DNA from: the human T2T-CHM13v2.0 reference genome, Homo sapiens
DNA length: 64,000 bases
Reading direction: 5' to 3' (one strand)
Assembly: GCF_009914755.1 (NCBI RefSeq)
Contig: NC_060926.1
Below, one piece after another: positions 1,743 to 4,567 of the stretch; position 1 is the stretch's first letter; each line of letters starts with the position of its first letter. The notes below the pieces were generated by a model that was given only the letters and a program-made list of their open reading frames with translations, was not told the origin of the DNA and did no database searches. Made by a program: the position numbers and the translations under genes.

Positions 1743-2889
1743 ACTTAAACAAAGACCTAGCATACATTCATTTGCCATTTTTTTGTAGAGCCTTCTATGG
1801 ATCCACTGGGGTGAGCCTGTGATATATTTTTTCATAAGCCATGCCCAAAATACATCTTCCATGATTTCCTGCTTTTTTCTAAAATAGATCTGAAACTGAA
1901 AGCCACCCATGAAGCAATCTGAGCTCAGAGCCTGCCTAGAGTTTGATTATTTTTTCTAATATAAATCTCTTACAGGTATATCACCCACACTTAAATCAAT
2001 AGAAATTTTTCAAAAACATTAAACTTGGTTTTTACATAACAAAATGGTTCACTTTTTTGCATGCCTATATAAGTAATATTTATTTAAACCATGTCATTAC
2101 AATAACAAGTCCAAGTGGTAGAAGATTTGCAACAGACATAAGAGGCCCTTGGTGAAGAGGCAACACAGTTGGAACCAGTGAGGGAGGAAACCAGAGAGCA
2201 GAATCCTCACCATGTGCTATGGACATAGTAGATACAGCTCACCAAGGAAATGGATTCTGTTAGGGAGAAGCCAGGAAAGACAGCCTCTATTCCATATTCA
2301 TACCCTTTCCCTCTACCGGTAATCTCGTAAAACCTGGCTGGGGAAAGACCAGGACTCATTCATACAAAGATACAAACAATCAACAAAGTGTAAAGTGTAA
2401 ACCCTTCCATGGGAATTTTCATTTTAACTCCTAAAGGAAGCCTCAAGTTATAGGAATGACTCCCTAATATGTAAATTTTAGGCATTGTTCAGTGAAGGAG
2501 GTACTATGTCACCCCCTTAAACAACCCTAAAATCACACCAGCAATTCTAAAGGACAAACTTAGAGACATACAATGCATTTTCTTATTAAAGCTTCAATAA
2601 AAATGCTTGGCAATAATAAATATTGGTATTTCGTGAATTCAGGACAGGCTTTTTGGGGAAAGTCAACCGAAGACAGATCTGAATTAGGAGAAGGAGTGAA
2701 TGTGTGCTGGGAATGCAAGGATTCACTCTGTAGATCTGACACAGTCAGTGACCTAGACTGAAATCCAGCCATCATTTCAGACAGTGTGCCCTCATCCACT
2801 CCATTGAGGAACACAGCTCCAGGGGCCAGGGGACCTCTCTTTGGAAGGTCCTTTCTGAGTACACAGTTTAGTGCTCCATGGATTCCATG

Positions 2890-3237
2890 TGATATGATTT
2901 GGCTTTGTGTCCCCACCCAAATCTCATTTTGACATAATCTCCACGTGTTGAGGGAGGGAGGTGATTGGATCATGGGGGTGGTTTCGCCCATGCTGTTCTT
3001 CTGATAGTGAGTGAGTTCTCATGAGATCTGATGGTTTTATAAGAGGCTCTTCCCACTTTGCTTTCTCTTCTCTCTCCTGCCACCTTGTGAAGAAGGTGCC
3101 TGCTTCCCTTTTCGCCTTGATTGTAAGTTTCCTGAGGCCTCCCCAGCCATGCAGAACTGTGAGTTAAACTTCTTTCCTTTATAAATTACCCAGTCTCAGG
3201 GAAGTTCTTTATAGCCGTGCGAAAACAGAATAATACA
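2890..3237 (+). mobile_element. THE1/MSTA MaLR solo LTR
   Basis: TGATATG...TAATACA termini; perfect 5-bp TSD CCATG at 2885-2889 and 3238-3242. Confidence 0.92.
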
Positions 3238-3295
3238 CCATGAAAGAAGTCAAAAAGTTAGGAGCAAAAAACGGTCTAAAAAACAGTTAAGCTGA

Positions 3296-4201
3296 GGGGT
3301 TTTTCCTCTCGGAAGTCCCCTCTCTCTCACTAGAGAGAGGGCTCTACTCCTTTCTCTTTCTTCTGCATATTAAACCTCTGCTCCTAAACTCCTCATGTGT
3401 GTCCGTGTCCTAAATTTTCTTGGTACGAGACAACGAACCCCAGGTATTTACCCTAGACAACCTAGCTGCTTCATATTGAGAACCTCGTCCAGGATACCAA
3501 GGTACAACATTCATCAAAATGGTGAGTAGAGGAGTGGACGCCAACTCTGTCCTTCCATTTCGGGGCCCTCAGCCTCCATTTTAGAACCAAATCAAATCAA
3601 TAACGGGTATCCTTCAGCCATTAAGAATATGATTAGTGTGGCTGCCGTTCTTAAAAACTTGGATGTGAGGCTTGCTGGGGAGAACATGGAGAATCCCCCA
3701 GTACCCACGGGTTGCTGGGCATATTGGCCATGTTTGAACCAGCTTCCTTTCACGGAGGACTTAGCCACCTCATGGGGCTGGAAGAGGTCCTGAAGCAACT
3801 GAGGAATTTTGGCTGGGGCTACCCCTGGTGTTATCCAAAGGCTTCTGGACTGACCCCAGCCTCCAACCCTCTGGGTTATCCAAAGGCTTCCGGACTGACA
3901 CCCAATGGGGTGTCGGCAACAGGATCTTCAACTTTCCTATCGTAATTTCCTCCTTTCCTATCTGCGACAGCCATGTCTCCTATCCTCTCTGTGTATGTAA
4001 TGCATGGGAAGTTTTACCGTTCAGGAAAGTAATTCCTAGGTAAATCAGACATCGCCTCCTCAAGCCTGACTATAAAATCAGCACATCCGCCGTCAGCCGG
4101 GCTTTTCCTCTCGAAAGTCCCTTCTCTCTCACTAGAGAGAGATGGATGTTCTCATTTCTCTTTCTTCTACCTATTAAACCTCAACACCTAAACTCCTAAA
4201 G

Positions 4202-4264
<63 letters not shown>

Positions 4265-4272
4265 AGAAAGAA
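3296..4272 (+). mobile_element. L1-processed ERV1 (MER50-like) transcript: R-U5-leader/U3-R-polyA
   Basis: Two R copies (3296-3393, 4099-4197); U5 ends TTCA 3473; degenerate tRNA-Pro PBS ~3476-3495; TATAAAA 4071; ATTAAA 4173; A tail; ~15-bp TSD. Confidence 0.8.
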
Positions 4273-4278
4273 AGAAAG
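4198..4278 (+). repeat. (GAAA)n tetranucleotide STR derived from a poly(A) tail
   Basis: About 15 perfect GAAA units plus about 3 more after one interruption. Confidence 0.97.
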
Positions 4279-4567
4279 TTCAGCTGATAAAATGGATGGT
4301 AGAATGAAAAGGCAAACATGTGGTAAATGGAATCTCCACTAAAGACAGAAAGAGGATGACGGAGGAGGCGTCAGGAGCACTGTATGTAACCATCACGTTA
4401 TAAATCTGTGCTACCCAAATGAGAATCACTAGCACCTCATAAAATAGCCAAGGCAGACACCCAGAATAACCTTACCAGGGTGATGGACAGGGGCTACCAT
4501 TTTGCAAATTGTCACTACCTTTAGCTCCCTCCAACACAACAGTAGACACCCTCACGCATGACAACCA

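What the first reader, a model, noticed from the sequence alone, without database searches (positions are those of the whole stretch)
3281..4287. ERV transcript retroposed by L1 (R-U5...U3-R-polyA)
Seen: the element starts at 3296 at the sequence lying ~28-30 nt downstream of the TATAAAA in its 3' LTR copy, i.e. the expected cap site, and has no 5' U3. It ends 19 nt after ATTAAA in an A-derived tail with no 3' U5. It is flanked by a ~15-bp direct repeat (AAACAGTTAAGCTGA / AGAAAGTTCAGCTGA) rather than a 4-bp integrase TSD. Known: this is the architecture of HERV-W processed pseudogenes. Inference: the same route was used by a MER50-like ERV1, which is less documented. The copy records the start and poly(A) sites of the ancestral viral RNA. 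Most internal sequence and most of U3 are absent (junction ~4040).
Basis: partly seen in the sequence, partly recalled or inferred. Interest (0 to 1): 0.7.

Follow-up and report, generated by a model that had tools for sequence, protein, structure and literature searches.

The report
Short-circuited retrovirus RNAs copied by L1
This ~1-kb human DNA relic has the shape of an ancient retrovirus RNA likely pasted into the genome by the LINE-1 enzyme, and it and 14 sibling copies all skip from about 700 letters into the RNA straight to its far end at mirror-image points, which likely records that the two ends of the viral RNA were base-paired into a loop.

Summary
Observation confirmed: cap-site R-U5-leader (3296-4033), 64 nt of U3 end, R, A-derived tail, TSD core 10/11. 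The family is LTR9/HUERS-P3, not MER50: homologous loci fall on two published LTR9 annotations (coordinate shift inferred). The copy is not alone. I found 28 L1-type copies: 15 with the same leader-to-U3 jump, 8 R-only, 3 spliced, 2 others. A review calls HERV-W the sole L1-mobilised group; single HERV-H/HML-2 exceptions are in print. The jump is in 13 of 14 cap-start copies and 0 of 29 U3-bearing proviruses, is not GT-AG, and arose in at least three subfamilies (one clade rejected, p-AU 7e-5). Donor and acceptor positions are anti-correlated (n=13: r=-0.89, slope -0.94; n=15: r=-0.88, one outlier). The leader is partly complementary to the U3 end on the same anti-diagonal (3 of 500 block shuffles as good), but several other folding tests were not significant and no two-sided covariation was seen. 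Best reading: L1 reverse transcriptase skipped across a 5'-3' RNA stem like HIV-1 gag-U3R (55%).

The parts
3278..3295 (+). 5' target-site duplication (core 3285-3295), after a CT/AAAA L1-endonuclease-like site
3296..3393 (+). 5' R from the cap site; first G has no counterpart in the 3' R copy (likely cap-derived); ATTAAA 3369-3374 read through
3394..3473 (+). U5, ending in CA
   Evidence: match to the end of proviral LTRs
3474..4033 (+). PBS-like site (~3475-3494), major splice donor G|GTGAGT at 3521/3522 (unused here), unspliced leader/internal 5' region to the junction
4000..4025 (+). leader arm of the predicted stem (partly complementary to the U3 TATA region; decayed in this copy)
   Evidence: this copy alone does not fold it
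4033..4035 (+). leader-to-U3 junction (about 4-8 kb of internal sequence and ~400 nt of U3 skipped; 1 nt ambiguity; no GT-AG)
4034..4098 (+). last 64 nt of U3 with TATAAAA 4071-4077 (U3 arm of the predicted stem ~4065-4087)
4099..4197 (+). 3' R with ATTAAA 4173-4178; ends 19 nt later
4198..4276 (+). poly(A)-derived (AAAG)n tail
4277..4287 (+). 3' target-site duplication core

Best explanation
The element has the ends, tail and target duplication of an L1-made copy of an unspliced LTR9/HUERS-P3-group viral RNA, and it likely lost the RNA's middle because L1 reverse transcriptase jumped across a predicted base-paired stem between the leader (about nt 680-900) and the end of U3. Shown: the architecture, the recurrence in 15 copies, the anti-diagonal junctions, independent origins, and partial complementarity. 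Inferred: ORF2p primes on the poly(A), copies R, enters the stem from its 3' arm, displaces the 5' arm, switches onto it near the fork, and runs to the cap, adding a G. The stem itself would be a genome-circularising 5'-3' contact like HIV-1 gag-U3R, used by the ancestral virus about 35-45 My ago (age inferred from 83-88% LTR identity with a recalled rate). Confidence that it is an L1 retrocopy is about 0.97; the figure below is for the stem-skip mechanism.
For: Jump in 13 of 14 cap-start unspliced copies versus 0 of 29 U3-bearing loci (counts; Fisher p 4e-10), plus 2 5'-truncated jump copies. Donor versus acceptor: r=-0.89, slope -0.94, permutation p 1e-5 (n=13); r=-0.76 without the two extreme copies; r=-0.88, Spearman permutation p 5e-5 (n=15). 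Score-threshold bias of the first search would push the correlation positive (inference). One origin rejected for 10 jump copies among 35 rows, at least 3 origins forced, p-AU 6.75e-5. Duplex across 19 proviral copies: -56.4 vs -43 +/- 6 (2% of 200 shuffles; 5 of 300). Watson-Crick only: -36.7, 0 of 300 column shuffles and 3 of 500 block shuffles. At the 0.7 threshold the top 5 of 228 window pairs cover this diagonal. The best duplex in a 500x400 window runs at donor+acceptor sums of -18 to -55, against a junction mean of -38. 11 of 15 donors land 4-49 nt 5' of the predicted partner, the side the displaced strand would be on. MFE folds of L017 and L006 close the TATA helix across the junction. 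HIV-1 nt 600-700 pair with the last 123 nt (PMC1976439).
Against: The stem is only modestly supported. Single-copy duplex z-scores were -0.3, -2.4, -1.7 and -0.8. A single-chain test was not significant (22 vs 18 +/- 3). aliduplexfold ranked junction-region windows top for only 1 of 5 U3 windows. With G-U allowed the junction window was beaten by windows at -328/-303, and at thresholds 0.5-0.6 other window pairs tie. The Watson-Crick-only variant was the third one tried. Whole-fold z-scores were not significant for L017 (-0.4), L006 (+0.8) or this copy (+0.9; -1.9 for a longer stretch). No two-sided covariation among 34 helix pairs in 5 subfamily groups. RNA and cDNA strands pair equally well, so the stage of the deletion is not fixed. 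L089 lies ~85 nt off the diagonal and L017 ~29 nt past its partner. L042 reads through all of U3 and L067 runs >3.9 kb unspliced without a jump. Only ~1.9 kb of the RNA was scanned for rival partners. The null test for the large window was lost.
Confidence: 0.55

Rival explanations
1. The same leader-U3 stem exists, but the RNA was cut across it and re-joined before L1 copied it (non-spliceosomal ligation, as recalled for U6-L1 chimeras).
For: It explains the anti-diagonal equally well. Three junctions (L001, L010, L065) share acceptor -35 to -37, which suggests a preferred cut or pause site.
Against: Donors scatter 4-49 nt to the 5' side of the partner, which is looser than a cross-stem cut. 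No ligase route for such ends is shown here.
Confidence: 0.15
2. L1 copied the long RNA in full, and the loop was removed at DNA level, from a first-strand cDNA hairpin during second-strand synthesis or repair.
For: The cDNA strand pairs as well as the RNA strand (-57.4 vs -56.4), and Watson-Crick-only pairing is the most significant variant.
Against: It needs repeated full-length copying of 5-9 kb. The outer stem is kept, whereas slippage usually removes a stem whole (own knowledge). Proviral DNA, which carries both arms, shows 0 of 29 such deletions.
Confidence: 0.15
3. There is no specific stem: copies are chimeras of a prematurely ended 5' RNA and a 3' fragment, or microhomology jumps between two pause regions, and the anti-correlation is partly luck.
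For: Several folding tests were not significant. Junction ambiguity (microhomology) is 0-4 nt. Three acceptors lie at or just inside the R start, where abundant R-only RNAs begin. L089 is an outlier.
Against: A slope near -1 with p about 1e-5 to 5e-5, and coincidence with the independently computed duplex diagonal.
Confidence: 0.12
4. The copies derive from one deleted or alternatively spliced master element.
For: Junctions cluster within about 230 nt of the leader and 170 nt of U3/R.
Against: All junctions differ and none is GT-AG. A single clade is rejected. No provirus has the deletion (0 of 29). Truly spliced copies exist and use the donor at 3521/3522 instead.
Confidence: 0.03

Closest known systems
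HERV-W (LTR17/HERV17) processed pseudogenes (PMC5537654, PMC5016936; passages read)
   Same: R-U5 and U3-R ends, poly(A), TT/AAAA-like site, 5-15 nt TSD; a large share of the group's internal-sequence copies
   Different: Different family (LTR9/HUERS-P3 group). HERV-W copies are described as colinear with the viral mRNA with recurrent gag/pol/env deletions; the passages read mention no leader-to-U3 jump, no secondary structure (0 hits in PMC5016936) and no R-only copies.
Retrotransposed HML-2 rec-like mRNA at 2q32.1 and spliced HERV-H copies (PMC3590776 passages; Goodchild 1995 seen only as a citation)
   Same: Non-HERV-W ERV RNAs copied by L1, so HERV-W is not strictly the only case
   Different: Those are spliced RNAs; here the main class is unspliced with non-GT-AG junctions, 15 copies
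HIV-1 gag-U3R circularisation and Ty1 gag-U3 pairing (PMC1976439; abstract, introduction, methods, last results and discussion read)
   Same: A segment about 600-900 nt from the cap, downstream of the major splice donor and so only in unspliced RNA, pairs with the U3/R end
   Different: Here the pairing is predicted only, with no probing and no two-sided covariation, and it is inferred from genomic fossils
Reverse-transcriptase template switching across stems (false 'introns' in cDNA) and U6-L1 chimeras (both recalled, not checked in a call)
   Same: Non-canonical deletions or joins made during or before reverse transcription
   Different: Here the skip spans several kb, is fixed in the germline many times, and traces one diagonal

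Membership tests
L1-made ERV processed pseudogene (HERV-W type) | 5' LTR reduced to R-U5, starting at the cap site | tested here: met
   start 28 nt after TATA in the 3' copy; same start in 23 copies; G before GG in 17 of 23 vs 0 of 20 LTRs (binomial p 1e-6 at 0.25). Of 16 with a TSD, by eye 6 clearly outside the TSD, 7 ambiguous, 3 absent
L1-made ERV processed pseudogene (HERV-W type) | 3' LTR reduced to U3-R followed by poly(A) | tested here: met
   ends 19 nt after ATTAAA in (AAAG)n; U3 further cut to 64 nt
L1-made ERV processed pseudogene (HERV-W type) | TSD of 5-15+ nt at a TT/AAAA-like site | tested here: met
   10 of 11 core; CT/AAAA (one mismatch) at 3276-3281
L1-made ERV processed pseudogene (HERV-W type) | colinear with a full-length or spliced viral mRNA | tested here: not met
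   leader joined to U3 end without GT-AG; this is the variant feature
L1-made ERV processed pseudogene (HERV-W type) | empty site in outgroup primates | not testable with these tools
   no other primate genomes held
LTR9/HUERS-P3 group | homology to loci annotated LTR9 in print | tested here: met
   L030 LTR (T2T chr6:31,279,326-31,279,966) fits the 642-bp LTR9 at hg38 31423445-31424086 (PMC7848197) with an inferred shift of 144,120; L073 fits LTR9C in HLA-DPB2 (PMC8193847 supplement file 2) and matches the window element at 71-79%. Shifts inferred, not lifted over
LTR9/HUERS-P3 group | exact LTR subfamily (LTR9, 9A1, 9B, 9D) | tested here: inconclusive
   the element sits in a 100/98 clade apart from the L029/L030 clade; LTRs of close proviruses are ~615 bp; no Dfam models available
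LTR9/HUERS-P3 group | tRNA-Pro primer binding site | not tested
   PBS-like stretch at 3475-3494; the resemblance to Pro is recalled only
MER50/MER50-int | best match to MER50 models | not testable with these tools
   no Dfam/Repbase; no MER50 locus with coordinates found in the passages or the supplement searched; relatives map to LTR9 instead
Spliced subgenomic ERV RNA copy | GT-AG at the junction, use of the major donor | tested here: not met
   the donor at 3521/3522 is read through
5'-3' circularising RNA contact (HIV-1 gag-U3R, Ty1) | complementarity between an internal 5' segment and U3/R | tested here: inconclusive
   significant; not
5'-3' circularising RNA contact (HIV-1 gag-U3R, Ty1) | compensatory covariation across lineages | tested here: not met
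   only one-sided changes among 34 pairs
5'-3' circularising RNA contact (HIV-1 gag-U3R, Ty1) | pairing shown by probing or gel shift | not testable with these tools
   experiment needed

The most novel reading that the evidence does not exclude
The human genome holds a base-level fossil footprint of a circularised retroviral genome: L1 reverse transcriptase repeatedly jumped across the leader-U3 stem of LTR9/HUERS-P3 RNA, so retrocopy junctions map a 40-My-old long-range RNA helix. This family is a second major L1-mobilised HERV group, and junction diagonals in processed pseudogenes can serve generally as in vivo probes of long-range RNA structure.
Probability: 0.5. Interest if true: 0.85.

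Novelty: new variant of a known kind. Interest (0 to 1): 0.72.

Why it matters
It contradicts the repeated statement that HERV-W is the only HERV group mobilised by L1, with at least 28 copies in another family. The copies fix the cap site, poly(A) sites, splice donor and promoter-proximal polyadenylation of an extinct virus. If the stem reading holds, it extends genome circularisation (HIV-1, Ty1) to an ancient gamma-like ERV, shows that L1 ORF2p can skip kilobases across RNA stems in the germline, and offers one testable determinant of why some ERV RNAs are retroposed: a short cut to a cap-complete copy. The locus itself is probably inert: intergenic, with no annotated element.

Tried and rejected
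MER50 label: not supported. Splicing at the junction: no GT-AG. Single master element: rejected by the tree (5 of the 15 jump copies were left out for Alu interruptions or truncation, and 4 of 29 proviruses were left out). Transcription from a small DNA circle or tandem duplication: three acceptors lie inside R with no TATA, and no provirus shows the duplication (inference). An apparent second intron in the spliced copies was an insertion in reference L058. Folding tests that gave no support. Prospective check: of 17 newly fetched leader-bearing loci (L079 re-read), 2 had a jump (L090 on the diagonal, L089 off it), 14 continued into internal sequence, and L076 broke off. The automatic TSD search found no convincing TSD for L012, L014, L027, L068, L069, L036, L045; L027 also lacks a clear tail. 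Paper searches listed no paper describing LTR9/HUERS-P3 retrocopies or this jump (listings only, plus the passages cited). Pavlicek 2002 is not held and may bear on novelty, as may most subscription papers, Repbase notes and bioRxiv supplements.

Full report
1. Observation. The element starts at 3296; a second R begins at 4099, 28 nt after TATAAAA (4071), and the two R copies are 85.9% alike over 99 nt. It ends 19 nt after ATTAAA in (AAAG)n. The TSD core matches at 10 of 11 (3285-3295, 4277-4287), behind a CT/AAAA site. U5 ends in CA at 3473 and the major donor at 3521/3522 is read through. The junction is at 4033/4034.

2. Family. A genome search gave 65 matches from 40 scored candidates out of 963; 30 loci were fetched. 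Four of six long stretches held both LTRs, about 615 bp where both were complete and 83-88% alike. A U3-start pattern has 396 matches. One relative, L030, has a ~641-bp LTR at the place of the 642-bp LTR9 listed between MICA and MICB (PMC7848197, passages). A fetch at the place of LTR9C in HLA-DPB2 (PMC8193847, passages and supplement file 2) matched the element at 71-79%. Both coordinate shifts are inferred. Kojima's table (PMC5753468, passages) and Vargiu (PMC4724089, passages) pair LTR9 with HUERS-P3. MER50 could not be tested directly. The group predates the New World monkey split (HUERS-P3b in Platyrrhini, PMC3597737, passages).

3. A family of L1 copies. Nine of the 30 loci start at the same R position with no U3. 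An R-end-plus-A-run pattern found 14 loci and none in the control: 1 already known, 8 R-only copies, 3 spliced at the major donor, 1 truncated within R, and 1 with a complete U3. Leader patterns and further fetches added six more jump copies. The total is 28 L1-type copies, a lower bound; L027 qualifies by its 5' end only. In the leader-pattern sample, chosen without regard to the junction, 6 of 25 loci were jump copies, 17 U3-bearing, 1 cap-start without a jump and 1 a fragment. A G precedes the R-start GG in 17 of 23 cap-start copies and 0 of 20 LTRs. By eye it is clearly outside the TSD in 6 of 16, ambiguous in 7 and absent in 3. This fits copying of the cap (own knowledge) and suggests that R-only copies come from polyadenylation at the promoter-proximal signal.

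4. The jump. Thirteen of 14 cap-start unspliced copies and 2 truncated copies join the leader (about RNA nt 680-900) to the last ~145 nt of U3 or the start of R; 0 of 29 U3-bearing loci do (p 4e-10). Junctions differ, lack GT-AG and show 0-4 nt ambiguity. A tree of 10 jump copies and 25 proviruses needs at least 3 origins and rejects one clade (p-AU 6.75e-5). The later the donor, the earlier the acceptor: r=-0.89, slope -0.94 (n=13), r=-0.76 without the two extremes, and r=-0.88 with the two prospective copies, of which L090 fits and L089 lies ~85 nt off. Such symmetry is what an antiparallel helix between the two regions would give (inference).

5. The stem. Aligned natural copies show helices between the leader and the U3 end: one over the TATA region, one 7-bp helix at -50 to -56 and one at -80 to -86. 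Counted over 19 proviruses, the duplex beats 98% of shuffles, and with Watson-Crick pairs alone all 300 column shuffles and 497 of 500 block shuffles. The best duplex in a much larger window follows sums of -18 to -55, against a junction mean of -38. Against this: single copies gave z of -0.3 to -2.4; two other tests were negative; rival windows tie at looser thresholds; whole folds of three copies were not significant, and this copy does not form the helix; there is no two-sided covariation, and RNA and cDNA strands pair alike. The null for the large window was lost. The copies have decayed by about 0.13 changes per site (median end branch), which weakens every such test.

6. Mechanism. I commit to template switching by L1 ORF2p at a strand-displacement fork in a leader-U3 stem (0.55). 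Eleven of 15 donors fall 5' of the predicted partner, where the displaced strand would lie. Rivals are RNA cut-and-join across the same stem (0.15), a cDNA hairpin deletion (0.15), no specific stem (0.12) and a master element (0.03). L042 and L067 show that the jump is not obligatory.

7. Known work. Grandi and Tramontano (PMC5537654, passages) define the hallmarks and call HERV-W the sole L1-mobilised group, with the determinants unknown. Schmitt et al. (PMC3590776, passages) report an HML-2 case and cite HERV-H, so exceptions exist. Grandi 2016 (PMC5016936, passages) lists recurrent deletions but no secondary structure. Ooms et al. (PMC1976439, parts 1 and 3 of 4) show HIV-1 nt 600-700 pairing with the terminal 123 nt, only in unspliced RNA, and note the Ty1 parallel. 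Searches listed nothing on LTR9/HUERS-P3 retrocopies or this jump; Pavlicek 2002 was not held.

8. Verdict. A real L1 retrocopy of an LTR9/HUERS-P3 RNA and a new variant of a known kind: a recurrent, geometrically ordered short cut that likely records a long-range RNA contact. Interest 0.72.

Noticed in passing
L033, L035, L037, L039, L041, L043, L044, L046 (each ~1420-1545): Eight ~95-nt R-only copies running from the cap site to poly(A), most with TSDs: likely L1 copies of RNAs polyadenylated at the promoter-proximal signal of a solo or 5' LTR.
   Followed up: partly
L036, L038, L053: Retrocopies of a singly spliced RNA (major leader donor joined to an acceptor ~270 nt before the 3' LTR) with complete or partly deleted U3.
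   Followed up: partly
L067/L074 (chr18:49.645 Mb): A copy of another LTR9-like subtype that appears to start at R and runs >3.9 kb unspliced; its 3' end was not traced.
   Followed up: partly
L089/L093/L094 (chr5:70.43 Mb; twin match at chr5:71.48 Mb): A jump copy with TSD inside another LTR-like sequence, duplicated with a chr5 segmental duplication; it is the outlier from the diagonal.
   Followed up: partly
window 2886-3239: A MaLR-like LTR (family recalled as MST type) just upstream of the insertion; a related LTR lies inside provirus L056.
   Followed up: no
G000:C10:131447806-131448140: Two LTR starts back to back, about 270 nt apart, on opposite strands.
   Followed up: no
L060, L063, L064, L067: A subtype sharing a ~160-nt leader deletion that keeps the predicted pairing region.
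   Followed up: no
window 3821-3902: A 37-nt tandem duplication in the leader, apparently particular to this copy.
   Followed up: no
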